35,323 bases of DNA, taken from NCBI GenBank assembly GCA_020536535.1, contig JAHLWZ010000381.1:63001-98323 (forward strand), given 5' to 3'. Below are positions 14,201 to 35,280 of the stretch, piece by piece. The notes under the pieces are model-generated. The model worked only from the letters and a program-made list of their open reading frames with translations, was not told the origin of the DNA and made no database searches. Position 1 is the stretch's first letter. Each line of letters begins with the position of its first letter. The stretch comes from Pelomyxa schiedti (Eukaryota; Protista; Evosea). The position numbers were made by a program, and so were the translations under genes.

Positions 14201-15258
14201 TCCTTGCTGCCACACGATACTGCTGTATAACCTTTTTTTTTTGTTGTGCGTGTGGGTCTGAGACCACAGCTACGGCTTCTCACTCAATACATTACCTCCA
14301 GATCTGACGACAAAGCGTCGCCGCTGGCTGCCGATGCTGACATTGTGACTCTGTTTTTTTTTCTTTTTTTTTTTCGCCTTTCTGTTTCCGGTTATGCTAA
14401 ACCTTCGTTTCCAAAAAGATCCAGATTTTACAAAAGAAACATCATTTCGAGATCTAGAAGACACAAAAAAACCCAAAAAACCTACGTGCACCTCACAGCA
14501 TCGCCACTCACACTGAGGAGACAATACGCCTGTGTGTTTGTTGTGAACGAGAGTAAGCATGAGGGAGGAAAGAGAAGAAAAGAGGCACACTTGTTCTCTT
14601 TGTGGGCTGTGCTTGATGGAACAGACGTCGAGAGAGTAGTTTAGGAGTGCATTGCCTCCTCTTGCATTTACATGTGAACGCACAACGGCTAGAGCATCAC
14701 ACAAAAATTGGTGAACGAATGTGCCGAAGTCAGTCTCCCCGAGGGAGAAGGTCTCACGAATCAAGTGAATATTCACATAGCCCAAATAACTGTGATGCTG
14801 TTGTTGAGTCCTGTGTTGGAAGGAAAGTGTACAACAGTACCTCTGCACGTTCATTCCCGGAAGAAAGCTTGTCGGTGATATGATGATTTTTTCACCCATT
14901 GGGTTGGGTGACATATTTTTAGACGTGTCCTATTGGGTATTGTCAAAACCGGCTAGTAGACACCATACTAACCCGTGTGTCAGATATACACATTGCAGTT
15001 ATGCAAAACTGCACTTCAAAATCATTAACAATAGTTGCTGTTGTGTTAGTCCGGTAGATACAACATGGACTCACGGGTCTAACCTGGTAGTCATTGCTTA
15101 GTAGGCTCAATTCACGCAAAGGCATACCATTTCAGCCAAAGCAAAAAACATTTCGCGGAAAGCGGAATTGAATAATTTTGTAACCGGCTGTTTGCCAGAG
15201 TTGAATCTCACTCTCTGAACCATAGTAACAAGTTGCTGCGCGTGACCACTGCTAGAGT

Positions 15259-17250: not shown

Positions 17251-17655
17251 GATGGGAGAGGATGGAGGATTAGGGCTTGGCGCGGAGATTATTTTTGGAG
17301 GTATTTGATATAATTCTCTTTGTCTTGCAACAAGCTTCGATAGGAAGCCAATCTGGGAAGGATTCAGTGTTAGAAGGAAATTACATTAAAGTGTGCAGTG
17401 TGGTGCACACAGTACAGAGTGGATCGACATATTTTCAATCTCCCGAAGCTTTGAAAAAACGTCGCACTCTTTACTTGAACAGCGCAGTATGAGGGGTCCA
17501 GGAATAGGAAGAGCAACCAGACATACCTATCTCCATAGTAAATAAAAAGAATTTGGTTCTTCCTATACAGCTGTGCCGGAAGCTACACCAGTTAACATAT
17601 TACTGCCAATACTGATGTCTATCTGCAATCGGAAAACAGCATTCATTCCCTATGT

Positions 17656-19912: not shown

Positions 19913-20056
19913 AACCCTTGACAGGGGAGCAGGCAGTTAATTTTCTTGCTAGAAAGAGGCCGCAGAGAAAACGAACAGCAGCACAAACGGAAAGCTTCAC
20001 TCAAAATCACAAAATTTTTCTTTTAAATAACAACAACATAAGAGCTGTGAGCCACA

Positions 20057-23000
20057 TCATGACATTTCATCAGCTTCAGCAGTAGCAGTTGAAGGCGTAA
20101 TAACCACAGAGAAATTCAGCTTTGAATTGACCACAGTGATGCTGACAGTAGACCTTTCTCGTAACTGCCCGCCAATGATCATCTTTGACACCTCTGTGAT
20201 GATGTGCTTCTCCAGGAACCTTCCAATTGGTCGGGCTCCAAACTGAGGTTCGTAGGCCTGCTCGATCACGAATCTCTTCGCGTCGTCTCCCATAACTAGC
20301 TTGATGTTCTGGTTCTCCAGCCTCTGCGAAATTCGTGTGACCATCAGCCCGACGATTTTCACCAAATCAGCTTGGGTCAGAGGGTTGAAAATCACAATGT
20401 TATCCAAGCGGTTCAGGAATTCTGCATACGTATTGGTAAGTACCGGTTTCTTTCTATTATAATAATAATAGTAATTGCTAGAGTGCGGACATACCGGGAC
20501 GGAACTGTTTTCGTACAAGAGTCATTACTTTCTCTTGAACTCCGACCAGCATTGTTCCATCCGGCCTGATGTTACTTAAGAGGAGGTCGGATCCAATATT
20601 CGAGGTCATGATGATAATGGTATTGCTGAAATCAACAGTTCTGCCGTGGCCATCAGTGAGACGTCCATCATCAAGAACTGGGCAATGTTAGCTGTGGATA
20701 CAAGAAAAGAGGCACTTCGCACCTTGAAGAAGCACATTCCAAACCTGCGTATGTGCCTTTTCAATCTCATCGAAGAGGACCACTGAGTAAGGCCTCCTTC
20801 TTACAGCTTCTGTGAGCTGGCCACCTTCTTCAAATCCAACATAACCTGGAGGAGACCCAATCAACCTTGCGACACTATGCTGTTCCATGTACTATTGCAT
20901 GATATCAGTGAAATTCCTTCATTAGCTTAGTTACACACCTCAGACATATCTATCCTAATCATATGTTTCTCATCATCGAAAAGTTCGTATGCCAGTGCTT
21001 TTGCCAGCTCTGTTTTCCCAACACCGGAGGGACCCAGAAACTAATGACTTGTTAGAAGATATGAAGTTATCCACTAATCTTACCATGAAGCTTCCTGTTG
21101 GTTTACCCACATTGCCAAGTCCAGCACGGGATCGGAGTACTGCTTCAGACACTGCGTCAACGGCTTCATTTTGTCCAACAACTCTTTTATGTAGTTGGTC
21201 TGAGAGTTGTAGCAAGCGTTCACGTTCTGTTTGGCTCAGTTTGGTCACAGGTATTCCAGTCCATCTGCTAACTACTTCAGCGATTTGCTCTGGTCCAACT
21301 ACTTCGGTGAGCATTCTATCCTTTTCAGTACGTTGAAGTTCTTCCGTGAGCTGTGAAAACATGTTAGATTTACCTTATTAGTGTCATATTAGATACCATT
21401 ACAACGCGCCTCTCGAGCTCTGGGATAGCCCCATACTGCAAGTCTGCAACCAAAGCTAGGTCTCCTCTTCTCTTTGCAGACTCCATTTTGTTTTTCAGTA
21501 CTTCAGCTTTCTGTTTCAACTCATTTATCTCCATAACCCTTGCTTTTTCTGCCTCATGTCTGGCCTTAAGCGGCATCAATTCTTCTCTGATCTTAGCCAG
21601 CTCTTCCCGGACTTTCTCTAGTCGTTGTTTACTTCCCACATCTTTCTCCTTCTCCAAAGCTGTGGCCTCAATTTCTAGTTGAAGTTGCTTCCTCTCCAAT
21701 TGGTCAATAACTTCTGGCTGGCTGTCCAACTGCACTCTTACACTGGCAGCTGCTTCATCAATCAAGTCGATGGCCTTGTCTGGGAGGAAACGATTTGTGA
21801 TATATCTTTGGGCCAGCTGTGCAGCAACAACAAGGGCACTATCCAGCAATCTTACACCATGATGAGTCTCGTATCGCTCTTTCAATCCACGTAGAATGCT
21901 GATTGTATCAGGGATGCTTGGCTCACCCACATAGACTTGTTGGAATCTTCTTTCGAAGGCTGCATCTTTCTCAACATGTTTGCGATATTCGTCCAGAGTC
22001 GTAGCACCAATGCAACGTAGTTCCCCTCTGGCACTGAAGAAAAAGTGAATTATTTATATGGAGAAACAGAGAAAAATGATGTGCATACAGCATGGGTTTG
22101 AGCAAGTTGGCGGCGTCCATGGAACCTTCTGCTTTTCCTGCACCCAAAACGAGGTGAATCTCATCAATGAACAAAATAATCCCAGTCTTGGACTCTGCTA
22201 TTTCCTTTAACACTGCCTTGAGTCTCTCTTCAAACTCTCCACGGTATTTTGCGCCAGCAACAAGTGCACCCTTTTTTAACCAAGGTTACGATAAGAAGGA
22301 AAAGAAAAGCTAAATACCATATCCAGGGCAATCACTTTGCAGTGTAGATCAGTAGGTATATCGCCGCGTACAATTCTTTGAGCCAGACCTTCCACGATTG
22401 CAGTCTTTCCTACACCAGGCTCACCAATAAGGACTGGATTATTCTTTGTCCTCCTGTTGAAGAAAAGGTTAAGCTGAAAACTGCAGGATTTTGTCAGGGG
22501 AGCCGTACCTTGCCAATATGCGAATGACACGTCTTATTTCATCATCTCTGCCGATCACAGGGTCCAGTTTTCCCTGTTCTGCCATAGCAACCAAATCGTG
22601 ACCATATTTTTCCAGAGCATTGTATGAGTCCTCTGGGTTTTGGCCATCAATTTTCCGTGTTCCTCGAGTCTGTGTGATCACTTTCTCCATCTGGTATTTT
22701 GACACTCCTGCGTCGCGCATAGCACCTCCAACGTCCTTGTTCTCGTAAAGAGCCACTGTATTTCCAAACGTGAGCGTTGGTTATGTGGTCATTTATATCT
22801 ACATATAAACAAACAACAAAACAAAAAAAGCAAAATGACACATACTCAAGAGGTGATCCACTGCCACGTGACTATCCTTTTGTCTAGTTTGAAGCTCCAA
22901 TGCCGCTCTCAGCACCGCCATCATCGGTCCCCCAGGTGACATCACTGAAGGTGGTGGATCCTGCCTTGGTTGTTTTTCCTATTTAAAGGAATCAGTGCAG

Positions 23001-23300
23001 ATATACACCAAAATGCCACGACATCTTTGACACATGACATCTTAACCAAAAAAAAAAAAAAACTCCATGACACGACCGACATCTACAAATACTTACCACT
23101 AGCCTCTTGATCACAGGGAGCAGGACGGCCGCGTCGCCGCCGGCTTTGGAGAACACCTGGCGCGCCAGGCCCGCCTCGTCCGAAAACAGAGCGAGGGCCA
23201 CGTGGGACGGGTGCAGCTCGGGGGCACTGTGCTCCAGCGCCATGCGCTGCGCCTTGCTGAGCGCCTCCGCGGCCTTGTCCGTGAACTGTGCGTTGTCCAT
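20057..23300 (-). CDS. Hsp104/Hsp101/ClpB-type AAA+ disaggregase, cytosolic type with no transit peptide, at least 11 exons. Resolved exons include 23300..23097, about 22977..22819, about 22756..22509, about 22454..22319, and a terminal exon about 20460..20057 (stop TGA at 20059..20057)
   Basis: Near-continuous similarity to Hsp101/ClpB. The N-domain reads [42 protein letters not shown]1 has [61 protein letters not shown] and [31 protein letters not shown]. The middle coiled-coil domain follows. NBD2 has [78 protein letters not shown] and [13 protein letters not shown]. Donors include GTAAGT, GTATGT and GTACGG. Confidence 0.9.
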
Positions 23301-23587: not shown

Positions 23588-24333
23588 CTAACTGCACAAG
23601 AGGTTCTTGAACTCCTCGAAGGTGAGAACACCATCACCATCAATGTCAGCGTCATTGAAGAGGTCCATGGCCGCTTCGTCTTCAAGGTGTTGTCCAAGGA
23701 ATGTGATGACCTGAGCGTGTGTGTTGATGGTTTTGTGATGTCAGAGAGGACAAGGCAAGGAGATTGGGGCAACCCGTTTCACCTTTTTGAATTCCTCCGC
23801 ATCGATTGTCCTGCTTCCATCCTTGTCAAAGAACTGTGTAGTAAATGGCACCAGAAAGGTTAAAAAAATAAAAAAAAAAAGTGAGTGTGTTGTTGTGATA
23901 TGGTGATATGATGAGGGAAGTGAAGGGGAAGACTAGCCGCACGCACATCAAAGGCCTGCTTGATGGCCAGCTCAGTGTTGGTGTTTGAAATTTTGTCCCT
24001 CATCACGTTGATGAAACTCTCATATGTCAGTTTCCCTTTTTCTGTGACTGAGTTAGTGTTGTAATGCAGTGTCATCTCTCGAACAACCATCCAGCATCGC
24101 TCTGATGTCCCTCGACGACGGGTCCTGTGCTTTTGTTTGTTTTTTTTGATTCAGTCAGGGGTTGACGTGGCATGAATTTGTATGCCACACAAAAGGTACA
24201 CACCAAAGGAGCGCATCAGCTTTGTGAGCTCCTCGGCATCGAGCCTGTCGTCCCCATCCTCGTCAAACAAATCAAATGCCTCTGTGAGCTCCTCGAGTTG
24301 TTCAGCCAGCACCTCGTCTTTCGTTGACGTCAT
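23588..24333 (-). CDS. Calmodulin-like / caltractin-like EF-hand Ca2+-binding protein, 4 exons (about 24333..24205, about 24090..23950, about 23826..23785, about 23720..23588)
   Basis: Exon 1 is MTSTKDEVLAEQLEELTEAFDLFDEDGDDRLDAEELTKLMRS, an EF-hand loop DEDGDDRLDAEE, with donor GTGTGT. Exon 2 is ...EKGKLTYESFINVMRDKISNTNTELAIKQAFD. Exon 3 is FDKDGSRTIDAEEFKK, an EF loop, with donor GTGAAA. Exon 4 is HAQVITFLGQHLEDEAAMDLFNDADIDGDGVLTFEEFKNLLCS*, an EF loop DIDGDGVLTFEE. Confidence 0.75.
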
Positions 24334-24580
24334 TGTTGTCAGCAGCTGCTGTTAGGGTTGGTGGTCTGTTTACTACCGGCGAATCTGGGGCCTGGGACTT
24401 TTTTTTACCAGAGCTTGTCCGTTTGCACCAAACGAGGGAAAAAAACACAACCACACGCCGGGTTCGTTTTGGGGGTGATGTTGTGTCAAAAGTGGAACCT
24501 TTACTGTTTCTCGGTAGTGCAACGGACACACGTTTAAGAGACCAAAAGAAAGCAAAACCCAACAAAAAAAAAACAGCCGT
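24334..24580. promoter_or_regulatory. 247-bp divergent intergenic region between the calmodulin-like gene (minus, ATG at 24333) and the giant NACHT gene (plus, ATG at 24581). It is presumed to hold a bidirectional promoter and 5' UTRs
   Basis: This follows from the positions of the two start codons. The region has an A-rich tract immediately upstream of the + ATG (aacaaaaaaaaaacagccgtATG) and a T-run at about 24400. No specific motif is claimed. Confidence 0.4.
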
Positions 24581-27130
24581 ATGAGCTCCACAGCACCAGG
24601 AGATGGGGGGGCTCACGCTACCTCCACAACGTCCACTGCTGAAAGGTCTTCCTCCTCATCAAGTCATCACCACAGCAGTTCCCACAGAGACAAAGCAGAA
24701 CCAAGTGCCCCACAAGAGTCTCGCGCGAAGCGAGTGCAAAACGTGACATCAGGAGCACAACTGGTAGCAGCACTGGCATACAACCGAGAGAAACTCGTCG
24801 AGGACAGGTTCAGCAAGCTACAGGGTTTCGTGGCTGCTGAGCACCAGAGGGCCGCCGAGCAACCGCCGCCCCCCACGGGAAGCGGGACTGCCCCAACTCC
24901 AGCTCCTGAAGGCAAAGTGGAGGTGAAGAAGAAGAACATACTCAGAAGGATGTTTGACACCGCCAAGTCCTTCGTCTCGGAGTATCTGCCAGAGACCACG
25001 TCCAAAGCTGTTCTGGGTGCGAAAGTTGCTCTGGAAGAGTCGGACGCCGATGAACAGTTCAGGTGTTCCCTGATCATCAACGACAAGGTAGGCCAAAGGG
25101 CACTTCAGAGCCTGGCAATCAAGATGATCGACAACTTCCTTTCAACACCGAGCAAGACTCCTGCCCTCATCCGCGAAATCGTGCAGCTTGCGAGGGTGGA
25201 CGACAGGGAGGTGGTCCAGATGCTGGTGACGGCACTCGCGAACACCATCGACCAGAACGTGCTGTTCGACGTTCCGATGATCGAGGGACTGGCGGAGGTT
25301 CTCTTCCAGTGCTCGTCGCGCCACATTCCGGTGGAGAACCTCGTCGTGATCTATCGAATGCTCATCGCGAAGATCGAGACACTTCACTCGCAACAGCAGA
25401 ACGCAGACAGGGTGTTTCAGATACTCAAGGGGTTCAACAAGCTGCTCCGAGCGATGTGGGCATCGGGCGTGAGGGGTCTCGACGAGGAGGACAAGAAGAA
25501 GTCGCTCGGGATCCTCCAGGCGATGAAGGACCGATACGCGAATTACAAGAGCCTCGAGTGTTACGTCGCCGCAGAGGCCGAAGTTGCCAAGCAGAATCTT
25601 CAGCGAATTCAAGATGACGGTGATCCCCTCGCCGACGTCGCCGCGCGTCTTGGTCACGCATACATGGCCGTCGGCGCAATTGCAAATCTGGCCATGCAAT
25701 ACGACATCAGAGAGGTTTTCAACTGTGTCTCCGAGCTGAAGGAGTGCGTTGCCGACATTTACATCAAGAAGTCGTGGATGGATGTTCTATTCTTCATTGA
25801 CTTGATGTTGTGGCAGCTCACTGTCGGTTCGAAGGAACTCAAACCGATGCCGCCAGAGGAACAGGAGAGACTCAAGAGCACGATCGAACGTCTTTACTCC
25901 AAATCCAGGAAAGTTGGGCTTCGCCAAGCTGAAGGCCTGAGCAAAGACGTAACCGCTGCTGAGGAAGGAGAGAAATCGTTTTGGCGTAATATTGGCGACA
26001 GTGTGAAAAGAAAACTAAGTGAGGTCAAAGCTCAGTTTGGTGCTATCATTGAAGGTGAACATGACTTCAGCCTTGGATACGTCAATCTCCTCGACAACGT
26101 AATCAAGGCCGAACCGCTCCTCGACAACATCGACATGAAGAACTGGGCATTGGCGCAGCTCAAGGGAATTCTTGTTGGTGAGGATTATCGCGAGAGCACC
26201 CTGATGAAGTTCTTCAACTCGGAGGTTGGATTGATGATGGTGGTCATCAGCAAGCTTCGTGAGTATTCAACGATGCCTCCTCCAATCGGAAACACTGCAT
26301 GGAAGATCCTGGGAGAAGTAATGGAGGTCATCCAAACGGAGGAGGCAAAAAACCAGTCAAACAGAGACATCAAGAACAAGATCGACTTTAGTTTGGCGTG
26401 CTACCCTCTGAGTAGCCAGTTGGAGAGTCCGTGCTCCGAGCTTCGTCGCCCCCGGCTGGTTTACATTTCAGATAAGGAACAATGGTGGTACATCATGCCC
26501 AAAGCAACACCAGAACGCATCCTCCTTTCCACTCTTCCTCCACCACGCCCAAAAGAGCAACCAACTGCAGAGGTGATCAGTTGTTTCGATGACAAGTTGA
26601 TCAAGAGCGAGGCAAATTTCTCAGCACAGGCAAAGGCACTCTTGAGTCCGTTCAAGCTCAACTTCCTGTTTTTCATGAAAACCCACCCATCTCCTCCCAC
26701 GCAGCCGGGGGCCTTTGCTAATATCCACCCAATTTTCCAGTTCAAGATGTTGATTCCACCAACGAAACCACAAACCGTGCCACTGGAAGACACTTTGTGC
26801 ACAGCAGAGTTATTCATGAAAGCCAAGGCGGAGGTGTTGGCAACACTGAAAGACTCTGTTGATGATCAGGTGGTGGACCTGAGAAAACGTACTTTGGAGG
26901 ACCCACAGCTCGAGAGTCTGCTCAAAACATATGTTGAGAGCGATTGCAGGGAGGGCATCCTCGATAAGTCTGCACAATCATTGACTGGCACCCTGTTCAA
27001 GAAGTTCCTGAAACTGGAACGACCAACCACGTCCCAGTCTCATCGCCATCACAGTGGGAGGTCTCATTCCTCCTCTTCCTCCTCATCATCGTCATCCTCA
27101 AAAACTGAGACAACAACCACAACAGCCCCA
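24581..27130 (+). other. N-terminal approximately 830-aa region of the giant protein with no recognisable domain. Its position suggests an effector or signalling module
   Basis: It begins with Ser/Thr/His-rich low complexity, MSSTAPGDGGAHATSTTSTAERSSSSSSHHHSSSH. A long, predicted mostly alpha-helical region follows (LQSLAIKMIDNFL..., VVQMLVTALANTIDQNVLFDVPMIEGLAEVLFQCSS...). A poly-Ser linker (SSSSSSSSSSKTETTTTT) sits immediately before the Walker A. Confidence 0.5.
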
Positions 27131-30100
27131 CCACCAACCAAAACACTTGTCCTTGTTGGTTCAGGAGGAACTGGAAAATCAATATTCGGGCACTTTGTGG
27201 AGAAACTCCTGTGGGAGTCGTATGACAGGTGCCACGTCATCCCGATCTTCATCTCACTTGCAACAATCAAGAACCCAAGCAAGAACCTGTTCGAGAAGAC
27301 ATTGACATCGCTTGGGTTCTCGCAGAGCAACATCGACGAGATCAAGGAAGGGAGGCGTGTGTTGTTCATCCTCGATGGTTATGACGAGATCACCCTCGAG
27401 GTTGGTGTGAACATCTGCCAGGCCAACAAACTTTGTGACTGGAAACACTCTCAGGTCTTGGTGTCCAGCAGGCCTGAGAAGATTGGGCAAGATTTCTTCC
27501 AGAGTTTCTGTTGCCTTGGTGGTGGTGGTTCCAGCAGCAAACCTGGAAAACATGCTGCGACAACCACAGCAGCCTCCTCAGGAAACAAAACGGCAGGAGG
27601 AAGTTCTGGTGTTCCTCTTGGAAAGTCGTCCACAGTCACCACCAAACAGGTTGCCGAGCAGCCCGAAGTTCTGTGCTGGTATATCGAACCATTCACGAGG
27701 CACAAGATCGAGAAATACGTCAAGAAGTACAAAAAGTGCGGAGGATCACAAGGCGAGAGGAGCGCGGAACTGTTCAACCAACACAGGGAACTCCTGAAAG
27801 GTGTGGAGGAGCTGCTGAGGACTCCGTTCATCCTCACAATGTTCATGGAAATCCTTCCCACCCTCGTCGACAAAATGGAGCAGGACAGGAGCAGGAGGAG
27901 GTTCGACGACTCGAACATCAGCAACAGTTCATCCGCATTGTCGATGGAGCTATCATCGAACCTGACGAGGCTTGAACTTTACGACAGGTTCGTGGAACAG
28001 TGGTTCCAGAGGCAAAAGTCGAAGATCACACCAGAGAGGATGGCACAGTGCACTCAGCACCTCACCGACGACGTCGAGGAGGTCAAGTTCAACTTCCAGG
28101 TTGGTGGTGACATCATCGAGGACTTCAGGTCGTTCTCCGAGAACCTCGCGATCTTCATGTTCACGAAGGGAGCGACAGCACTTCAATACAGTCCCGTGTG
28201 GACACTGAACAGCCAGGGTGTCGAGGTGATCGATCAGAACAACCCACTCGAGAGGTTCTTCAGCCCCACGAACAGGAGCACCCAACTCGTCCTGTCTGGG
28301 TGTCCTGTTCAGAAGAAGGGAGCCAACACGTTCATGTTCCTCCACAAGTCGCTTCAGGAATACTTCATTGCTTACAAGATTTACAAGGAGATCCAACTCT
28401 GTTCCAGCATGCCATTCTCGAACTTTCCGCAAGTGAAGTGCAGGGAGACAATAAAGTTCACACAGAGCAGCTACAAGGAGACAACCCGTCAGATTGTGAG
28501 TGCGATTGTTGAGGAAATAGCTGAAAGGGTTGAGTCAAAGTGGTTGCCAGCAACTGAAAGCGATGATGAACCCACCCAGTTCTTCCGAATCATGATGGGT
28601 CCCTTTGCCGAAGTTGATAAATATGAATGTGAGGAAATTACAGAGATTTTTGTGGATTTCAAAGACCATTTCCTTGCGATGACGGATCCTCCTCCTCTTG
28701 AACTGGCTGAGGTTTCAAACGACAAGCACAAGTTGGAACACCGGCGCGGAATGAGATTGGACTGGCTACCTCAGAGCAGGGACAAAAAATGGACATGTAA
28801 TATTTGCGGCAGTGTGGGCGATTTGGAGAATCCCGACGACGAGTATTGGCACTGTGGCAAATGCGACTTGGACCTGTGCAAAAACTGTATTTCGAAGTTC
28901 CGTGTGTTGCCACCAAGCAAGAGCACACCAAGTGAAAACAACTCGGGCACAACAGCACCAGTTATCAGCAACACCTCTGGAGACAAAGAAGCTATGCCTG
29001 AAAAGCAACAAACAGCACCAGCCCCAAAAATTTCTACTGACAAGGCTGCAACCACATCCACTGTGCCTGTTACCTCCAGTGCTGTTGTATCAGAAGAACA
29101 ACAGGAGGCAAATTTCCAGAGACTCAGAGGACTGTTGGATAAGATCTTTTTTATTGTTGGGGAGAGGCGGCGTCTTGACAAATTGATGAATAAAATAAAA
29201 GAGGCACACTCCCGTCGTCAAGCACAATCTTCTCAGGGATGCTCTTTTGACAAGGAAAAAGTCATAGCTGACATCCTGCACAGTATGGACTTGCTTAGGC
29301 ACAGCGTGAAAGAGGCTTGTGATTCTGTTCTCTCGCACACACGGAAGGCCGAGTTGCACCTTGAAGAAGAAGAGGTCGACTACACAATCACAAAAAACAA
29401 CTTCAGACCAAGTTTGGGAGTTGTGATCGACATTCGAAGGAGGCTGAGGAAGATGCAAGCTGCAAAAGAGAAGGGAAAAAGAACAAAGGTTGTGAAGTAT
29501 CCAAAAGAGCTTGTTGTGAACCAGTCCTCTCTTGTAAAAGTCCACGATGTTGTAAGCTTTTTGTTGGAGATGATGAGGAGGGATGATTCCTTGGCAACAA
29601 CAGAAGATGCGAATAACAAGGACACATTCAGTCTGCGAAACGCACTCCTCCTCCTCATTGAGAATTCAAAGTGGACAAACAGAAAAATTGAAGGGGGCTC
29701 AACAGAAATCAATAGCAGCAACAAAATGAGGATTCACAGAGCTGACAGGGCTGCATCAACTGCGATGATGCTTCTTCTTCAAGGAAAACACAACTTCTCC
29801 AACGTGGATTTGAGGCACATCCACATCAACGGTGCAGACCTGAGTGGTGGAATATTTGGTGGTGCCAGTTTGGTGAAGGCTGACTTGAGTGACTGCAAAA
29901 TGCAGCAGGTGTGGCTCAGTGGAGCTGACTTGGCACACTGCGACATGACAGGTGTGAGCTTCAACGAGAGGGTTGCCTTCGATTTTGGTGTTGGTCTCGC
30001 GTGCGTTGATGTTTCTGCTGACGGGAAGAGGCTTTGTGCATGCCCACGCAACAAAGGTCACCCACTGTTGTGCGATATCACTGACGAGGACCACGAACTT

Positions 30101-33100
30101 AAGGAAATCGGCCCCGAGGTTCAGTGCAATCAGTGCAAGTTCTCTCCAAATGGGAAGAAAATATGCTTTGTTATGTCTGGAGATCAGTCTGTGTTGGTTC
30201 TGGAGACTCATGGCAACACCTGGTTCAACGTTGTGTTGCCAAAATCTACAGTTCTCATGGATGGGAAAAAAGAAAACCCCTCTGCAACAGCCAAGCCCTC
30301 GGCAACAACCAAGATTAGTGGAATGTCCACAGCTGTGCCCAACGCGTCGTCTTCTGCCACAATCAAAAGCATTTGCTTCTCCGCTGATTCCTCCGTTCTC
30401 GCCATTTCCGTTTCCAAAGAACGCCGGGATGCTTTTGACACATTCATATATTCCCTGACCTCTGCCGCTGCCACTCCAACCACAACATCGACTCCCCCTT
30501 CTTCTGCCTTGCAACAACCAGCGGCAGTAGCAGCAGCAGCACCGGAGAGCCCAAAAACCACAGGAACAGAAGCAGTCCTGCCACAACATACACTCAACGA
30601 CTGTGTTGGTCACTTTTTCATCAAGTCTTCTCTTTTGGTGACACAAAACGCCCCCAATAGCCCCCACTCTTGGTGGGAGGTTCCCGCTGCCGAAAAAACC
30701 GGTGCTGCCACGAGCACACCGCCGCCGCCAAAAGATCCACCAACCAACATTGGGAGCGACATTTCGATGTTTGCATTGTCACCAACAAGAAACAAACTTG
30801 CTGGATTCTCCCAAAAAACAGGAAAGGTGACGGTGTGGGAGTTCTCTGAGAAGAACTTGCGCTCATTCCACGTTCTTTTTGAGCACCAAGTCAGTGATCC
30901 ACAGGGTGGATTCTCCAAACTCTCTGTCCTCTCTTTCTCACCCAAAGGGACATGGCTTCTTGCTGGGACACAGTTGCTGCACGTCGAGACCCAGAGTGTG
31001 AACTGCGACGTGGCACAAAAGTGCTTCTTCACTGGTGAAGACACACTTGGTTACTTGGGAGACTCCCAGATTTATGAGGTCAAAGCTTCGTCTGGGAACA
31101 TGCGGGTCACTGAGAGTTGGCCTTGCCGTTGTGTTGCTGCTTGCAGATCCAAAGTTCTTATAGTCACGAGGAGACCAGCAGAACCAAAGGAAACTGCCGA
31201 ATCGGAGAAAACGAGTGCCGCTTCTTCCTCTGGGAGCAATCCACCACAAGAAGAACACGCAAACGACTCATCCAAGTGGGTTATTGTGCATGAGATGTGG
31301 ACAAGTGATGGGATCAAACAGTTACCACTTCCAAATGACTTCGACGAGGCAAACAAGAAGAATCTGCGTCCTTGTTTCTCGTCTGATGGGAAGTACGTCG
31401 CTGGGTGTGATGCCTCGACCTTATTCTTGTGGGATTTGAGCAGTGGCACCATGGTCAAACACAACAACACACTCACTGACTTTGAGTTCAAGGCTTGGTC
31501 GTTCTTCCCGGCAAAGGAAGGTGAACCTGTGAAGTTCGGTGTTGCTCTCACAAGAAAGCAAGTTGAAGATGATGCAAAAGAAAAAGAAAAGGAAGATGAT
31601 GGTGACAGTAAAGAGAGTGAGGATAATCATGAAGACAAAGACAATGACAAAGACGAAGACGAAGACCAAGCCAAAGATAAAGACGAAGATGAAGATGAAG
31701 ATGAGGATGAAGATGAGGACGAGAGTGAGAATGAGTATGAGAGTGAAGATGAGTCAATTTCAGAAATTCAGGAGGGCAAGTTTTTCTGTGAGAAAGACAT
31801 TCCAAAAGACCCCAATAATATTTTCTGTGTGTGGAAAGTGATGGGTGTAGATCCTTGTGAGGCTGTGGAGGAAAATGATGACACTCGAGATTCAGTCGTT
31901 TCAACACCGGGTTTAATCTTGGAGGAGCCAATCAGACTTCCACTGGGAAGAGCTATTTGGGACACCGTCGTTGTGTCTCCATCTTGGAAATCAGTGATAC
32001 TCCTGGTCACCAACCCCTACAAGGCTAACTTCATGGTTATCATTGACCAAGAGGCACATACAATCACAGGAACGTTGTCGCTTCTCTCGCCCGTTTTTAT
32101 TTTCCCAGGAATTACAACCGAGAGATCGCAAAGCACTTCAATTTTCGAATGCAGTCCCGACTTCGATCCCCACAGAAAGTTGCTAAAAGAAAAGGCCGAT
32201 CAAGTGCTTGCCGCAAAAGGTTGTGCGCCAGCCAGTGAAGATCGACAATATTTGTCCTTGCAGGGAGACACTTTGGTTGGCCTGGACCTGAACCTGTTTG
32301 GATCTATTACTCTCTTGGAGGAACTGGACCTGGAGAATGACAAAGACGCAAAGACAATTGATGAACTGGAGAGTTCTTCCAAGAATGAATATGGTATCTT
32401 CGAACGAAGCATGGGTGCCACTGTCCAAAGTGGCCCATGGTGCCTGTTGTTGCAGAGTGAAGTGGCAGCCATCGCCACAACCAAGTCAACGATTGTACTC
32501 TGGAAATTGGCCAGGCCAAAGAAGTGCTTCCTCACGTTGGGTCCCTTTTCAGGACACATATTCTCCGTTACAGCATCTGGTGACAACATGCTTGTTGTTG
32601 TTGCTGGAAGGGACATCCACTACATTCGTGTGGAAAGAAGGCCTGATGGTGATGGGTTCGTTGCAACATTGGTTCACAGAACAGGCCACACGATGCAGCC
32701 TCTCGTTGCTGCTCATGCAAACGTGCAAACAGTCAAAGGCCTGAGTGTGGAAAACAAAAGCCTTCTGAAGTCGCGTGCAATCATTGGAGCAATCAAAATC
32801 GAGAGGGAGTTCGATACCAAGGTTGTTCGACCACAGGTGGAAAAACTGAAATCGAAAGTGTGGACTTCAGCACAAAGCAAACCAAAGCAGATGCCCAAGT
32901 TCCTGGGTTTGTTCTTCTCGAATTATTCAAATCCAAGAAGCAATAAGTGCACGGCGGACCTTGCAGACAAGTATGAATCTCTCATTCAAGAACAACCAAA
33001 GAACACGTTCGCTATCATTGAGATCTCCTGTGATCGCTCCGCGAGATTGTACAAGACAAACGCACGAAAGGATATCAATGGATGGTCACATCTCCAGTTT

Positions 33101-35280
33101 GACGAAAGGGAATTGCAAGAGACTCTCGTGGATCTGTTTGATGTCACTCCATGTACGTCCCTCTCTTCTTCTTTTCTCGTTTTTTACTTTTGTTTCCTTT
33201 TTCTCTTCAAACAGCTGAACCCACAATCGTGGTTCTGAACCAACAAGGGGAGATGGTTTCCAAACATTCGGTTCATGTTCTCTTCAAAGAATTTGCCCAC
33301 CTCAAGTTCCCATGGTCAGTCGAATCTGTCAAGTGGGTGAAGTTTGAGTCACACAAACATCCTCTCGAGTTGTTGTCAACTCCAGAGTTCGTTTGTTCAA
33401 AATGTAACGAGGGTGGATCGGGATTGGCATATCACTGCCATTTGGACAGTCAGGACTTCCATCCACGGTGCACATCAGGTCCCTCTGAGTTGCCGGAATG
33501 GATCTTTTACAAAGGTCATGAGCACCCAGTTCGTCTGGACCAGAAGAGTTCTCCCCCCGAATATCACTGCAAGAAGTGCTCGCACGATGTTGAGCTCAAA
33601 GATTGCCTCAAACTGAAAAAGATTGATCCGCCACCAAAACCAATATTCTCATGGAGCATGTTTGACGGACATGAAACACCACTCCAGTTGGTATTCAAGA
33701 GCGGCTCTTATCAGTGTGCGCAATGCAAAGCAACAAAAGAAGGGGACTGGGTTTATCACTGTCCCAAGAGTAACCTTGACCGCGAGCCTTCCTGCCTCGG
33801 TGATCCCCACCCGTTGTCCAAATGGCTGAAGCTTGAATATCACCCCCACCCTGTCAAACTCACTGAGAAATCGCCAGTGAGCTGGAGTGATCTGCAGTGT
33901 AGTATATGCAGGAAACGTTGCACCAAGTGGTATTACACCTGCCCCGACTGTGAAAAGTTCTGCGTGGAAGTTGAATGCACTCTGACACAACCCTGTGAGG
34001 CACTTCCTGATCCCGTGGTGGAACCAAACAACTGGAAGAAATTCCCCAAAGACCCACACCCATTGAAAATGGTGTTCATGAAGGACTTCCAGTGTTGCCA
34101 GTGCGAGAAACCGGGATCATGTTGGGCACTCGAGTGCAAAGTGTGCAAACCGGAAGGTGTTTATTTCCACCCACAGTGTGCTGGAGAGCCTCGTGAACTC
34201 CCAAAGTTGGTCCTCGAATCAGGTGACTCGGCACACCCTCATCCACTTGCCTTGAAGTCGTCTGAATATGGTGGTACATGTGACAAATGTGGTGATGACA
34301 TCGAAGATACAGAGCAATTTTATTATTGCAAGCTCGATGGCCATTGCCTTCATTTGAAATGTTGTCTGTCAGCCACAGAACTTCCCGACGTCGAGGGGAA
34401 GCCACTGACGTGGAAGAAGTGCAACCAAGACACACACCCAGTGCAGCTGGTCCTGAGCAGCGGCGAGTTCACGTGCCACCACTGCAACAAGCCAAAACCG
34501 GGACCCGCGTGGGCGTACAGGTGCCACACCGAGAACGTTTTCTTCCACGTCGAGTGCCTCGAGAACCCGCAGAACCCGCAGAGGTGGATCATCCTCAACA
34601 GCAAGCACAAGCACCCGCTCCAGTTCGGCAAGAACCCAGGGTTCCTCAAACCCAAGTGCTGTGTGTGCAACAGCGACGGCGACATGGATGCGCAGGTGTA
34701 CGTCTACTTCTGCGAGAGCTGCAACGACTGGTGCCACGTCAAGTGCATGGAAGGGTGCGTGCCGCCGCCGCCGTTGATCAAGATCAAGAAGCACCAGCAC
34801 CCCCTGGCGTTCGTGGAGGCGGCCCCGCCCAAGCCAGAGGGCGCCGACGACGACAACAACATCGACGGCGACAGCGACGACGAGCGCGCGGCCGCCGCGC
34901 AGTGCGACACGTGCTACGGCGAGATCGCCGGGGAGCAGCACTACAAGTGCACAAAGTGCCCCGCTGTAAGGCACATCGGGTGCTGCTCCAAGCCCCAGGC
35001 GTTCGACCCCCTCGCCCCCGTCGGTGACGACGAAGACAGTAGCAGAAAGGGGAAGACAAAGGCCGATGCAGACAGTGACGACAGCGACGATGACAGCGAC
35101 GACGATGACGAGGACCACGGGTCTCAAGAGCAGTTTTTACTAGCGGCAAAGATGCGCGCCATAGAAGCCAGATATGCAACTTCCCAACATCTCCATGGCC
35201 ACCAGGCTGAAGACTCCAAGGCAGACAAAGGTAAAGACAAGGCCGAGGATGAAGCCGACTCCAGTGCCAGTGACGACTGA
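24581..35280 (+). CDS. Giant NACHT-family STAND NTPase (NLR-like) with pentapeptide repeats, a WD40-like beta-propeller, an acidic tract and nine C-terminal tandem DC1-like zinc fingers. CDS is join(24581..33152, 33215..35280), about 3,545 aa, with a single 62-nt phase-1 intron (GTACGT...ttcaaacag)
   Basis: Exon 1 is an 8.57-kb uninterrupted ORF. It contains Walker A LVLVGSGGTGKS (about 27150-27185), Walker B RVLFILDGYDEI (about 27361-27396), a sensor-like SSRP, LRTPFILTMFMEI, and the NACHT winged-helix motif FLHKSLQEYFIAYKI (about 28331-28375). The donor GTACGT at 33153 and the acceptor after a 45-nt pyrimidine-rich tract (ag at 33213-33214) join in frame (...LFDVTP-S-EPTIVVLNQ...) to a 2.07-kb ORF of DC1-like repeats, ending at TGA 35278..35280. 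If unspliced, the reading frame ends 28 codons after the donor in pyrimidine-tract sequence (LSSSFLVFYFCFLFLF). Confidence 0.8.
27130..28380 (+). other. NACHT NTPase domain of the giant protein
   Basis: GSGGTGKS (P-loop), hhhhDGYDE (Walker B with the NACHT-typical acidic pair), LVSSRP, the GxP-like RTPFILTMF and FLHKSLQEYFIA are all present, in canonical NACHT order and spacing. Confidence 0.85.
28788..28890 (+). other. Internal DC1-like / C1-like Cys-His zinc finger
   Basis: WTCNICGSVGDLENPDDEYWHCGKCDLDLCKNC has the pattern C-x2-C-x14-H-C-x2-C-D-L-D-L-C-x2-C. This resembles the DC1 core (Y-x-C-x2-C-d-f-d-L-H-x2-C). Confidence 0.55.
29790..29965 (+). other. Pentapeptide-repeat block of about 11 tandem A(D/N)LxX units
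   Basis: HNFSNVDLRHIHINGADLSGGIFGGASLVKADLSDCKMQQVWLSGADLAHCDMTGVSFNE shows A[DN]L / xDLxx periodicity every 5 residues. Confidence 0.8.
30060..32700 (+). other. WD40-like beta-propeller region, divergent repeats, interrupted by a poly-Asp/Glu tract at about 31560..31760
   Basis: WD-like strands recur: VQCNQCKFSPNGKKICFVMSGDQSVLVLE, IKSICFSADSSVLAISVS, ISMFALSPTRNKLAGFSQKTGKVTVWEF, LSVLSFSPKGTWLLAGT, NLRPCFSSDGKYVAGCDASTLFLWDL, HIFSVTASGDNMLVVVAGRDIHYIRV. The acidic insertion reads DDGDSKESEDNHEDKDNDKDEDEDQAKDKDEDEDEDEDEDEDESENEYESEDE. Confidence 0.6.
31560..31760 (+). repeat. GAN/GAY triplet-repeat tract, (gaa/gac/gat/gag)n, encoding the poly-D/E insertion
   Basis: gacgaagacgaagaccaagccaaagataaagacgaagatgaagatgaagatgaggatgaagatgaggacgagagtgagaatgag is read directly. 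Confidence 0.8.
33340..35000 (+). other. Nine tandem DC1-like (divergent C1, Cys/His-rich) zinc-finger repeats at the C-terminus of the giant protein
   Basis: Each unit has H-x-H-P-(L/V)-x-(L/F) followed by C-x2-C ... (Y/W)-x-C-x2-C ... H/C-x-x-C. Examples: HKHPLELLSTPEFVCSKCNEGGSGLAYHCHLDSQDFHPRC; HPHPVKLTEK...CSICRKRCTKWYYTCPDCEKFCVEVEC; HKHPLQFGKN...CCVCNSDGDMDAQVYVYFCESCNDWCHVKC; HQHPLAFVEA...CDTCYGEIAGEQHYKCTKCPAVRHIGC. GC3 rises markedly across the last three units. Confidence 0.7.

What the first reader, a model, noticed from the sequence alone, without database searches (positions are those of the whole stretch)
24581..33152. Intron paucity of the giant gene versus intron-dense neighbours, and a bacterial-style domain order
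The GH3 gene has 6 introns in 2.2 kb, Hsp104 has at least 10 in 3.2 kb, and the CaM-like gene has 3 in 0.75 kb. The giant gene has one intron in 10.7 kb, and none in the 8.57 kb covering the N-terminus, NACHT, pentapeptide and WD40 regions. By inference this pattern fits a comparatively recent origin. The options are horizontal acquisition of a bacterial NACHT-pentapeptide-WD40 STAND gene later fused to a eukaryotic DC1 exon, retrotransposition of a processed transcript, or strong selection against introns in very long exons. Its codon usage is not obviously foreign by eye. The GC3-rich 5' and 3' ends resemble other GC-rich patches in the window.
Basis: inference. Interest (0 to 1): 0.65.

Follow-up and report, generated by a model that had tools for sequence, protein, structure and literature searches.

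The report
Intron-poor giant amoeba NLR-like gene
A 10.7-kb gene for a 3,545-residue NACHT "switch" protein in a Pelomyxa-like amoeba has one intron while its neighbours have about four per kb, most likely because its gene family came from bacteria long ago and not recently.

Summary
The + strand gene 24581..35280 has one 62-nt intron (33153..33214). Hsp104 has 10 introns, GH3 has 6 and the CaM-like gene has 3. At the neighbours' density, 42 introns are expected in the giant coding sequence (P about 2e-17). No credible hidden introns were found.

The protein is a STAND/NLR-like NTPase with the order ARM_5, NACHT, zinc finger, pentapeptide, degenerate beta-propeller, thioredoxin-like domain, then nine DC1 fingers. 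It belongs to a multi-copy Pelomyxa family. Two P. schiedti proteins are 76-79% identical. Three are 37-42% identical, share the core and carry other accessory domains.

Outside Pelomyxa the nearest NACHT relatives (about 30% identity) lie in bacterial gene contexts or in Mycoavidus, Legionellales-, Coxiellaceae-, Chlamydiae- and Myxococcales-type genomes. Cyanobacterial and actinobacterial hits are far weaker. Mucoromycota fungi form a separate clade. Tree support is moderate (66%).

Codon usage resembles the amoeba neighbours, not the AT-rich bacterial relatives. An old bacterium-to-amoeba transfer fits better than a recent one.

The intron lies inside the thioredoxin-like domain, about 290 nt past the likely fusion point. 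It does not mark a separate "DC1 exon". Retroposition is not excluded.

The parts
24334..24580 (.). 247-nt intergenic region shared with the divergently transcribed, intron-bearing CaM-like gene. It is probably a bidirectional promoter.
   Evidence: The CaM-like ATG is at 24333 on the - strand and the giant ATG is at 24581 on the + strand.
24581..33152 (+). Exon 1, 8,572 nt, codons 1-2857 plus the first base of codon 2858. It contains no intron.
   Evidence: Open reading frame. No credible cryptic intron.
25085..25750 (+). ARM_5 (PF23948) helical solenoid domain, aa 169-390. This is probably the 'NLR_Helical' N-terminal domain of fungal NLRs (my inference, not tested).
   Evidence: Pfam E 8.9e-17. 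105 of 151 homologues also match this region. Literature: PMC9815663.
27116..28450 (+). NACHT NTPase module, aa 846-1290. Walker A is GSGGTGKS (aa 860), Walker B is LFILDGYDE (aa 928), the sensor-1 Arg is in VLVSSRP (aa 959) and the winged-helix His is in FLHKSLQEYF (aa 1253). A low-complexity insert interrupts the module.
   Evidence: Pfam NACHT E 2.8e-6. The invariant columns G15, G18, G20, K21, D87, D90, E91, R119, P188, F189 and the near-invariant H361 are all present. Motif positions.
28754..28891 (+). Internal Cys/His zinc-finger-like element, aa 1392-1437, with weak C1_2 similarity.
   Evidence: Pfam C1_2 E 2.2e-3, below the cut-off.
29741..29980 (+). Pentapeptide-repeat beta-helix, aa 1721-1800.
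   Evidence: Pfam Pentapeptide E 3.1e-8. 96 of 151 homologues align here.
29981..32428 (+). Degenerate WD40/beta-propeller-like region with long low-complexity inserts, aa 1801-2616.
   Evidence: Only sub-threshold WD40/PD40/EML hits. Weak collinear matches to the clear propellers of P0002 and P0003.
32429..32848 (+). Conserved C-terminal family domain, aa 2617-2756. This is the last part shared with homologues.
   Evidence: Matches the C-termini of P0151 (Mycoavidus), P0120 and P0125, and also P0002 and P0003.
32897..33252 (+). Thioredoxin_8 (tryparedoxin/nucleoredoxin-like) domain, aa 2773-2870, interrupted by the only intron. No WCPPC-type motif is evident.
   Evidence: Pfam E 5e-11 on the spliced protein, profile positions 2-93 of 94. 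Tryparedoxin II hits in the PDB. Sequence read.
33153..33214 (+). The single spliceosomal intron, 62 nt, phase 1, GTACGT...polypyrimidine...CAG.
33215..35280 (+). Exon 2 including the stop codon. It encodes the end of the Trx-like domain, nine DC1 (C1_2) zinc-finger modules (about 33340..35007) and an acidic tail.
   Evidence: Pfam C1_2 E 4e-32 with 5 scored stretches. Nine HxHP[LV]-type modules counted. Best PDB hit is the Arabidopsis At1g60420 DC1 domain, 1v5n.
20060..23291 (-). Comparison gene: Hsp104/ClpB1 with 10 introns.
6637..8879 (+). Comparison gene: GH3 beta-glucosidase with 6 introns and one apparent 1-nt frameshift.
23591..24333 (-). Comparison gene: CaM-like EF-hand gene with 3 introns.
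15262..17385 (-). Comparison: a 2.1-kb intron-free low-complexity open stretch inside a C2CD5-like gene (C2, YbjQ_2 and YbjQ_4 pieces at 19936..14273).

Best explanation
The gene is a genuine nuclear gene of a Pelomyxa-like archamoeba. It encodes a giant STAND/NLR-like NTPase.

Its core has the order ARM_5 helical domain, NACHT, pentapeptide beta-helix, beta-propeller, conserved C-terminal domain. This core belongs to a family whose diversity is mainly bacterial, largely in intracellular or host-associated lineages. I infer that the family entered the Pelomyxa lineage by an old bacterium-to-amoeba transfer.

After the transfer the gene took on host codon usage and duplicated repeatedly. Different copies picked up different eukaryotic accessory domains: PDEase in one paralogue, C2 in another, and here a nucleoredoxin-like thioredoxin plus nine DC1 module.

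The core has no introns because it never had any, and intron gain since arrival has been slow. The one intron lies in the added eukaryote-type module.

Likely mechanism, inferred from the STAND family and not tested here: the propeller and pentapeptide region holds the NACHT domain in an ADP-bound off state. Ligand binding allows nucleotide exchange and oligomerisation. Oligomerisation brings the ARM-like and Trx-DC1 modules together to signal.
For: - Gene structure and intron deficit.
- It is a real eukaryotic gene. It is physically linked to intron-rich Hsp104, CaM-like and C2CD5-like genes, it lies 247 nt from the CaM-like gene, and it has a canonical intron.
- Family: an exhaustive HMMER search gave 1,307 hits. 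66 of the 151 sequences examined share ARM+NACHT+pentapeptide.
- P. schiedti relatives: two are 76-79% identical. Three are 37-42% identical, share the core and carry different accessory domains.
- NACHT tree: Pelomyxa clade 100% bootstrap, sister to P0008+P0039 at 66%, and separate from the fungal+Mycoavidus clade (80%).
- P0008, P0122, P0131/P0155, P0144, P0010, P0101 and P0043 all sit among bacterial genes such as RNase R, SecB-FtsJ-FtsH, DnaK-DnaJ and IspD/F-GAPDH-PGK.
- Bacterial ORFs show the same domain order.
- NTPase motifs are intact.
- Codon usage is host-like: RSCU r 0.64 with the neighbours, while the bacterial relatives correlate at about -0.2 with the giant.
- The Trx-DC1 region is unique to this copy and the intron is inside Trx.
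- Archamoebae are known to carry many prokaryote-derived genes (PMC8136499). P. schiedti has 7.43 introns per gene (PMC8887013).
Against: - The sister relation to bacterial sequences has only 66% support and the backbone is unresolved. The method was NJ only; no ML tree was possible. The ARM-domain tree does not resolve the placement.
- Identity to any bacterial relative is only about 30%, so direction and timing are inferred, not shown.
- Many bacterial carriers are intracellular. Such bacteria often take genes from their hosts, so the reverse direction is possible.
- Only the best 150 of 1,307 hits were seen and most have no taxonomic label.
- Another gene in the window (C2CD5-like) has a 2.1-kb intron-free exon.
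- GH3, whose best solved-structure match is a 615-residue beta-glucosidase (5m6g, source organism not given by the tool) rather than the plant enzymes, carries 6 introns. If GH3 is itself of bacterial origin (not established), introns can accumulate in acquired genes in this lineage.
- The intron status of the paralogues is unknown.
Confidence: 0.55

Rival explanations
1. The family is eukaryotic in origin, or too old to assign, and intracellular bacteria took it from their amoebal and fungal hosts. Under this reading the giant gene lost its introns secondarily. Possible routes are reverse-transcriptase-mediated conversion or retroposition of a (partly) processed transcript, followed by spread through duplication and gene conversion among paralogues.
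For: - Many bacterial carriers (Mycoavidus, Legionellales, Coxiellaceae, Chlamydiae) live inside eukaryotic cells.
- Fungal and Mycoavidus copies are interleaved and 50-66% identical.
- The family is multi-copy. Giant and P0152 share a block of about 230 identical residues, flanked by regions that are 60-80% identical. That pattern fits gene conversion.
- Tree support for a bacterial sister group is moderate only.
Against: - Among eukaryotes the family was seen only in Pelomyxa and Mucoromycota, plus Pezizomycotina for the helical domain according to PMC9815663. These form two separate clades.
- The basal branches and a non-intracellular Myxococcales MAG are bacterial.
- Pentapeptide repeats fused to NACHT are typically bacterial (general knowledge).
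- A processed retrocopy should lack the 62-nt intron, and there is no poly(A) tract in the 43 nt after the stop.
- RT-mediated loss usually removes 3' introns first, yet the surviving intron lies at 80% of the coding sequence.
Confidence: 0.2
2. The intron paucity has nothing to do with the gene's origin. In this genome very long exons, lineage-specific fast-evolving genes, or low-complexity-rich genes are generally intron-poor. Causes could include selection against splicing errors in very long transcripts, or in-place expansion of coding sequence.
For: - The C2CD5-like gene has a 2.1-kb intron-free low-complexity exon.
- The giant protein is full of low-complexity inserts.
Against: More than 6 kb of the intron-free stretch encodes conserved domains (ARM_5, NACHT, pentapeptide, C-terminal domain), not expanded linkers. 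Conserved-domain genes next door carry about 4 introns per kb. The only comparison available is a single 35-kb window.
Confidence: 0.15
3. A recent horizontal acquisition from a cyanobacterium or actinobacterium.
For: Only the intron paucity and the bacterial-type domain order.
Against: - Cyanobacterial and actinobacterial hits are only E about 1e-7 to 1e-11, at 20-23% identity over the full NACHT module or 26-31% over short fragments.
- The best bacterial hit is about 30% identical.
- Codon usage and GC3 are host-like.
- Deep paralogues exist in P. schiedti.
- The gene has a spliceosomal intron and shares a promoter region with a host gene.
Confidence: 0.03
4. An assembly artefact or bacterial contamination joined to amoeba DNA.
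For: P. schiedti assemblies come from amplified single cells that carry endosymbionts (PMC8887013, PMC10579272). A 1-nt frameshift in GH3 shows that the sequence is not error-free.
Against: The ORF continues without a break into an intron-containing, eukaryote-type Trx-DC1 region. The composition is host-like. Independent P. schiedti gene models encode 76-79% identical proteins.
Confidence: 0.02

Closest known systems
Fungal NLRs with the 'NLR_Helical' N-terminal domain (Mortierellomycetes, Pezizomycotina) and their Mycoavidus cysteinexigens homologues (Wojciechowski et al. 2022, PMC9815663)
   Same: A helical solenoid (ARM_5) N-terminal to NACHT, followed by pentapeptide and WD40 repeats. About 30% identity across ARM, NACHT and pentapeptide. 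Multi-copy families. Host-endosymbiont transfer has been suspected.
   Different: The Pelomyxa proteins form their own clade outside the fungal+Mycoavidus clade. They are about twice as long, have a degenerate propeller, and this copy carries a C-terminal Trx-DC1 array that no homologue has. That ARM_5 is the same domain as NLR_Helical is my inference and was not tested.
Bacterial NACHT-pentapeptide-WD40 and ARM_5-NACHT STAND proteins of host-associated and other bacteria (P0008, P0122, the OZ257148 gammaproteobacterial MAG, Legionellales, Coxiellaceae, Chlamydiae and Myxococcales MAGs)
   Same: The same domain order in single ORFs of 1,100-2,934 aa. They are the nearest NACHT relatives of the Pelomyxa clade.
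   Different: 24-32% identity. AT-rich (GC3 0.24-0.39) against 0.58 here. No Trx-DC1 module, no intron, and often arranged in tandem arrays.
Bacterial anti-phage NACHT proteins (bNACHT; bioRxiv 10.1101/2022.07.19.500537) and animal NLRs
   Same: A NACHT NTPase core with Walker A, Walker B, sensor-1 and winged-helix His, flanked by repeat sensors. Eukaryotic NACHT genes have been proposed to derive from bacteria.
   Different: No PADLOC defence family matched, except a weak PDC-S60 hit (E 7e-5). No LRRs, and no death-fold or TIR effector. An immune role is untested.
Plant nucleoredoxin NRX1 (At1g60420) and tryparedoxin
   Same: The C-terminal module pairs a tryparedoxin-type thioredoxin fold with DC1 zinc fingers. 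The best solved-structure hits are the At1g60420 DC1 domain (1v5n) and tryparedoxin II.
   Different: It is one Trx-like domain, without an evident WCPPC active site, followed by nine DC1 modules and attached to a STAND protein. E-values are only 1e-4 to 1e-5.
Prokaryote-derived genes of Archamoebae (528 candidates in Mastigamoeba balamuthi, PMC8136499)
   Same: A lineage known for many bacterial acquisitions that have become integrated nuclear genes.
   Different: [quoted passage not shown] No NACHT or WD40 case is mentioned in that paper (0 occurrences).

Membership tests
NACHT-clade STAND NTPase (NLR-like) | Walker A P-loop GxxGxGK[ST] | tested here: met
   GSGGTGKS at aa 860. G15, G18, G20 and K21 are invariant in the 18-sequence alignment.
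NACHT-clade STAND NTPase (NLR-like) | Walker B hhhhDGxDE with the acidic pair | tested here: met
   LFILDGYDE at aa 928. D87, D90 and E91 are invariant. This motif was the pattern used in the scan.
NACHT-clade STAND NTPase (NLR-like) | Sensor-1 arginine and a winged-helix histidine | tested here: met
   R in VLVSSRP (invariant R119). H in FLHKSLQEYF (H361, at least 90% conserved).
NACHT-clade STAND NTPase (NLR-like) | Pfam NACHT model at or above the gathering score | tested here: met
   27.7 bits against a cut-off of 26.7. The match covers only the N-terminal 95 of 167 profile positions, because a low-complexity insert follows.
NACHT-clade STAND NTPase (NLR-like) | C-terminal repeat sensor domain | tested here: inconclusive
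   The pentapeptide match is clear (E 3e-8). WD40 hits are sub-threshold only, and propeller homology is inferred from the paralogues.
NACHT-clade STAND NTPase (NLR-like) | Nucleotide-dependent oligomerisation and signalling | not testable with these tools
   Needs biochemistry.
ARM_5-NACHT-pentapeptide-WD40 family (fungal 'NLR_Helical' NLRs and bacterial relatives) | ARM_5 domain N-terminal to NACHT, pentapeptide C-terminal to it, in one polypeptide | tested here: met
   ARM_5 E 8.9e-17 at aa 169-390, NACHT from aa 855, pentapeptide at aa 1738. The same order is seen in 66 of 151 homologues.
Gene acquired by bacterium-to-eukaryote horizontal transfer | The recipient clade nests within donor-domain diversity in a supported phylogeny | tested here: inconclusive
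   NJ tree with 200 bootstraps. Pelomyxa clade 100%, sister to sequences in bacterial context at 66%, backbone below 40%. The ARM tree is unresolved.
Gene acquired by bacterium-to-eukaryote horizontal transfer | Patchy distribution among eukaryotes | tested here: inconclusive
   Among labelled hits only Pelomyxa and Mucoromycota were seen. Only the top 150 of 1,307 hits were visible and most are unlabelled.
Gene acquired by bacterium-to-eukaryote horizontal transfer | Not contamination: linked to host genes and carrying eukaryotic features | tested here: met
   It is flanked by intron-rich host genes, has its own GT-AG intron, and is fused in frame to Trx-DC1.
Gene acquired by bacterium-to-eukaryote horizontal transfer | Recent transfer: donor-like composition or high identity to the donor | tested here: not met
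   RSCU r is 0.64 with the neighbours, while the bacterial relatives correlate at about -0.2 with the giant. GC3 is 0.58 against 0.24-0.39. The best bacterial identity is about 30%.
Processed retrogene | Complete absence of introns | tested here: not met
   One canonical 62-nt intron is present.
Processed retrogene | Poly(A) remnant and target-site duplications | tested here: inconclusive
   Only 43 nt follow the stop codon before the window ends. They contain an A7 run but no poly(A) tract.
Processed retrogene | An intron-bearing parental copy elsewhere in the genome | not testable with these tools
   P. schiedti DNA could not be reached.
Nucleoredoxin-like module | Tryparedoxin-type thioredoxin fold followed by DC1 domain(s) | tested here: met
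   Thioredoxin_8 at 43.2 bits (cut-off 27) and C1_2 at 109 bits. PDB hits 1v5n and tryparedoxin II.
Nucleoredoxin-like module | Redox-active WCxxC motif | tested here: not met
   The sequence at the expected site reads FFSNYSNPRSNKC, with a single Cys. This was read by eye, not aligned formally.

The most novel reading that the evidence does not exclude
Pelomyxa-type amoebae, which live packed with prokaryotic symbionts, may carry an expanding family of giant NLR-like receptors. The core would have been captured from intracellular bacteria. The family would since have been re-armed with eukaryotic output modules: here a redox-inactive nucleoredoxin-like Trx plus nine DC1 array, elsewhere a cyclic-nucleotide phosphodiesterase or a C2 domain. 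That would be an independently assembled amoebozoan innate-immunity or symbiont-surveillance system, and its intron-free cores would be a fossil of the transfer.
Probability: 0.25. Interest if true: 0.65.

Novelty: new variant of a known kind. Interest (0 to 1): 0.45.

Why it matters
If the reading is right, this is one more independent case of a eukaryote taking a NACHT/STAND sensor from bacteria. That bears on the current debate over the bacterial roots of eukaryotic innate immunity.

It would also place NLR-like receptors in Archamoebae, a group where I know of no description of them. In addition, it gives a concrete locus for asking how slowly introns colonise acquired genes in a genome with about 7 introns per gene.

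The practical point for annotation is smaller. Existing P. schiedti models of close relatives (917 and 521 aa) look truncated compared with this 3,545-aa gene.

Tried and rejected
- Word-index protein search with the whole of exon 1 found nothing. Low-complexity words probably filled the candidate list.
- A cleaned query found only P0152 and missed P0001-P0004. That tool's recall is poor here.
- The third search used an Hsp104 exon to identify the organism. It returned only unnamed 57-81% hits and gave no identification.
P. schiedti proteins P0152 and P0003 are not in the gene-position index.
- Two metagenome scans, one with a single protein and one with the Pelomyxa-clade alignment, found no relatives. 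The intron status of the paralogues therefore could not be checked.
- Tetranucleotide correlation was uninformative at these lengths. Values were 0.2-0.56 for all pairs, including the bacterial controls.
- A simple codon log-odds exon finder trained on the giant gene was too weak to map the neighbours. Alignment to solved structures was used instead.
- Rfam, tRNA and tandem-repeat scans found nothing relevant.
- PADLOC and NCBIfam gave no family assignment.
- Structure prediction was not run. The questions at issue are evolutionary, and a single-sequence model of a degenerate propeller would be unreliable.
- Mastigamoeba balamuthi was rejected as the source, because its genome is 60.7% GC and the window is about 46%.
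Full report
**Observation**

The window is eukaryotic and intron-rich. On the + strand an ORF opens at ATG 24581 and stays open to 33238. At 33153 there is a GTACGT donor, and at 33214 a pyrimidine-rich ...CAG acceptor. Removing these 62 nt joins the frame of 24581 to the frame of the next long ORF (33151..35280). The result is a 3,545-aa protein with a single stop at the end. The junction is supported independently, because the Pfam Thioredoxin_8 match rises from 34.3 bits on exon 1 alone to 43.2 bits on the spliced protein and then covers profile positions 2-93 of 94.

I mapped the neighbours by aligning concatenated reading-frame pieces to solved structures.

- Hsp104/ClpB1 on the - strand (23291..20060) falls into 11 collinear blocks, which means 10 introns of 43-118 nt.
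- The GH3 beta-glucosidase (6637..8879, + strand) falls into 8 blocks. Six gaps are clean GT-AG introns. The seventh (7611/7634) is a 1-nt frameshift, not an intron.
- The CaM-like gene (24333..23591, - strand) has 3 introns.

That gives 19 introns in about 4.8 kb of coding sequence. At this density 42 introns are expected in the giant's 10.6 kb, and one is observed (Poisson P about 2e-17).

A donor/acceptor weight-matrix scan of exon 1 found only 7 weak candidates. That is the background rate seen in known coding blocks, and their GC is 45-53% against 37% for real introns. The intron paucity is real.

**What the gene encodes**

Pfam and motif inspection give this order:

- a low-complexity N-terminus;
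- ARM_5 (aa 169-390, E 9e-17);
- a long helical linker;
- NACHT (aa 846-1290), with intact Walker A GSGGTGKS, Walker B LFILDGYDE, the sensor-1 Arg and the winged-helix His;
- a Cys/His finger (aa 1392-1437);
- pentapeptide repeats (aa 1721-1800);
- a degenerate, insert-rich propeller-like region (aa 1801-2616);
- a conserved C-terminal family domain (aa 2617-2756);
- a tryparedoxin/nucleoredoxin-type thioredoxin-like domain (aa 2773-2870) without an evident WCPPC motif;
- nine DC1 zinc-finger modules;
- an acidic tail.

The best solved-structure matches of the C-terminal module are the DC1 domain of Arabidopsis At1g60420 (nucleoredoxin) and tryparedoxin II. The WD40 assignment is the weakest call. 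All WD40-type hits are below Pfam cut-offs. It rests on weak collinear similarity to paralogues that have clear propellers.

**Relatives**

An exhaustive HMMER search with aa 150-1340 gave 1,307 hits.

- The best are Pelomyxa schiedti proteins. P0001 (521 aa) is 79% identical and P0152 (917 aa) is 76%. Giant, P0152 and P0001 are roughly equidistant, at 76-78% over shared columns, with mosaic sharing of variants. Giant and P0152 share a block of about 230 identical residues. These are recent paralogues, or orthologue and paralogues in sister taxa.
- P0002, P0003 and P0004 (2,408-2,672 aa) are 37-42% identical. They share the ARM_5-NACHT-pentapeptide-propeller core but carry other accessory domains: a C-terminal class-I phosphodiesterase in P0002 and an N-terminal C2 domain in P0003.
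- No homologue among the 151 examined matches the giant beyond aa 2760. The Trx-DC1 array is therefore specific to this copy.

The source organism is thus a Pelomyxa or a close relative. Mastigamoeba balamuthi is excluded by its 60.7% GC. I could not decide whether the window is P. schiedti itself.

Beyond Pelomyxa, identity drops to about 30%. The labelled hits are:

- Mortierellomycotina and Glomeromycotina fungi (Modicella, Mortierella, Entomortierella, Glomus);
- Mycoavidus, the Mortierella endosymbiont, with many copies per genome;
- bacterial MAGs.

A scan of 185,579 prokaryotic species genomes found the closest bacterial NACHT modules (24-32% identity, E 1e-21 to 1e-51) in Mycoavidus, a gammaproteobacterial MAG (OZ257148), Coxiellaceae, Chlamydiae, Legionellales and Myxococcales.

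Seven unlabelled hits from the non-fungal part of the tree were looked up on their contigs. All sit among bacterial genes such as RNase R and SLT, IspD/IspF/GAPDH/PGK/TIM/SecG, an XRE-type regulator with a nucleotidyltransferase, CorA, a seven-gene NACHT-WD40 array in a MAG, DnaK-DnaJ with transposases, and SecB/FtsJ/FtsH/GlmM/HU. An eighth, P0039, is on a short uninformative contig.

Bacterial ORFs show the same order. Legionellales L040 has NACHT-pentapeptide-WD40, Myxococcales L037 has ARM_5 (E 7e-56)-NACHT, and P0008 has ARM_5-NACHT-pentapeptide in 2,934 aa. The 'bacterial-style domain order' is therefore correct.

**Phylogeny**

I built a neighbour-joining tree of 81 NACHT modules with 200 bootstraps, rooted with ordinary bacterial NACHT proteins.

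- The family separates from the outgroups at 81%.
- The Pelomyxa clade (giant plus P0002-4) is recovered at 100%.
- Its sister is P0008+P0039 at 66%.
- The fungal+Mycoavidus clade is distinct at 80%.
- The backbone is unresolved.

An ARM-domain tree again gives Pelomyxa at 100%, outside the fungal clade (84%), with unresolved placement. Positive support for a bacterial sister group is only moderate.

**Age of the event**

GC3 of the giant gene is 0.58, ranging from 0.49 to 0.66 along it. That lies inside the spread of the neighbours, 0.37-0.63. Its RSCU correlates with the pooled neighbours at r 0.64, similar to neighbour-versus-neighbour values. The five bacterial relatives tested correlate at 0.03-0.23 with the neighbours and about -0.2 with the giant, and have GC3 of 0.24-0.39.

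Three things together point to an old event rather than a 'comparatively recent' one: the roughly 30% identity to any bacterial relative, the deep paralogues, and the 247-nt head-to-head arrangement with an intron-bearing host gene.

**The intron and the fusion**

The last region shared with homologues ends at about aa 2756. The Trx-like domain begins at about aa 2773. The splice junction is at aa 2858, which is position 110 of a domain spanning 25-122 of the fragment tested. The join between the bacterial-type core and the eukaryote-type add-on therefore lies inside exon 1. The intron splits the thioredoxin fold about 290 nt further on.

The broader idea survives: a eukaryote-type module was added, and the only intron lies in it.

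**Best explanation and rivals**

The best explanation (about 0.55) has four steps:

1. a bacterial STAND gene was taken up long ago by the Pelomyxa lineage;
2. it took on host codon usage;
3. it expanded into a family;
4. different copies recombined with different eukaryotic domains.

Under this reading the core never had introns. Archamoebae are known to hold hundreds of prokaryote-derived genes (PMC8136499), and P. schiedti averages 7.43 introns per gene (PMC8887013).

The main rival (about 0.2) reverses the direction. Here the hosts are the source, and the intracellular bacteria (Mycoavidus, Legionellales, Coxiellaceae, Chlamydiae) are the recipients. This needs secondary intron loss, possibly by retroposition or conversion among paralogues. 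The retained intron, its 3' position and the lack of a poly(A) tract argue against a simple retrocopy, but only weakly.

A second rival (about 0.15) is that long exons are generally intron-poor in this genome. The C2CD5-like gene next door has a 2.1-kb intron-free low-complexity exon. However, most of the giant's intron-free stretch encodes conserved domains.

Recent transfer (0.03) and artefact (0.02) are effectively excluded.

**Mechanism**

This part is inferred from the STAND/NLR family and was not tested. The NTPase motifs are all intact. The protein probably works as a nucleotide-dependent switch. The pentapeptide and propeller region would act as an autoinhibitory sensor. NACHT would drive oligomerisation. 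The ARM-like N-terminus, the apparently redox-dead Trx and the nine DC1 fingers would serve as interaction or output modules.

No PADLOC anti-phage family and no NCBIfam model matched. It is therefore not a member of the characterised bacterial NACHT defence families in those libraries.

**Comparison with what is known, and verdict**

The ARM-like domain plus NACHT plus WD40 family has been described in fungi, with Mycoavidus homologues and suspected host-symbiont transfer (PMC9815663). Intron-poor acquired genes in intron-rich protists are a known pattern.

What is new here:

- the family's presence and expansion in an archamoeba;
- its closer affinity to bacterial sequences than to the fungal clade;
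- the Trx plus nine DC1 C-terminal fusion.

I rate it a new variant of a known kind, of moderate interest (0.45). The decisive missing data are the exon structures of the paralogues, a genome-wide intron-versus-exon-length survey, and a properly labelled ML tree.

Noticed in passing
window 7600..7640 (GH3 gene, + strand): The GH3 reading frame shifts by 1 nt around 7636. Frame A reads ...GYPIDR then a stop, while the homologous ...[14 protein letters not shown] continues in the next frame. No intron fits. This is either a sequencing indel at a TT or a real frameshift (pseudogene).
   Followed up: partly
window 25220..25950 (giant aa about 215-445) compared with P0152 (P. schiedti Pelo_4670): A block of about 230 residues is 100% identical between the giant protein and P0152, while the flanking regions are 60-85% identical. 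Giant, P0152 and P0001 share variants in a mosaic pattern. This suggests gene conversion among recent paralogues, or extreme constraint on the ARM_5 domain.
   Followed up: partly
window 14273..19936, - strand: A C2CD5-like gene (C2 domain, YbjQ_2 and YbjQ_4 pieces) contains a 2.1-kb open low-complexity exon (15262..17385) with no Pfam match. It is a second long intron-free exon in the window.
   Followed up: partly
window 6637..8879 (GH3): The best solved-structure match of the GH3 protein is a 615-residue beta-glucosidase, 5m6g (E 5e-141; the tool gives no source organism). It scores ahead of the plant ExoI enzymes (3e-124), yet the gene carries 6 introns. If GH3 is itself of bacterial origin, acquired genes can become intron-dense in this lineage. 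Its origin was not tested.
   Followed up: no
P0152 (917 aa) and P0001 (521 aa), P. schiedti gene models: Both public models of the closest relatives end abruptly within or just before the NACHT P-loop region, whereas this gene encodes 3,545 aa. They are probably truncated by contig ends or by gene-model errors.
   Followed up: no
L084 1..19402 (MAG GCA_964651735.1, contig CAZYYU010000008.1): A bacterial MAG carries at least seven consecutive same-strand NACHT / NACHT-WD40 / ARM_5-NACHT genes in 19 kb. This is a tandem array of the same family.
   Followed up: no
L001-L049 (Mycoavidus cysteinexigens MAGs) compared with Mortierella and Modicella proteins: Mycoavidus genomes hold many copies of the family (more than 10 loci in isolate BRE-AD073). 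Their NACHT modules are 50-66% identical to those of Mortierellomycotina host proteins and interleave with them in the tree. This fits repeated host-endosymbiont exchange.
   Followed up: partly
window 1..621, - strand: A partial GHMP-kinase gene (GHMP_kinases_N, E 3e-21) runs off the left end of the window.
   Followed up: no
window 8962..10101, - strand: A 380-codon open frame rich in Pro/Gln repeats (PPQRQ units) has no Pfam match. Whether it is coding is unclear.
   Followed up: no
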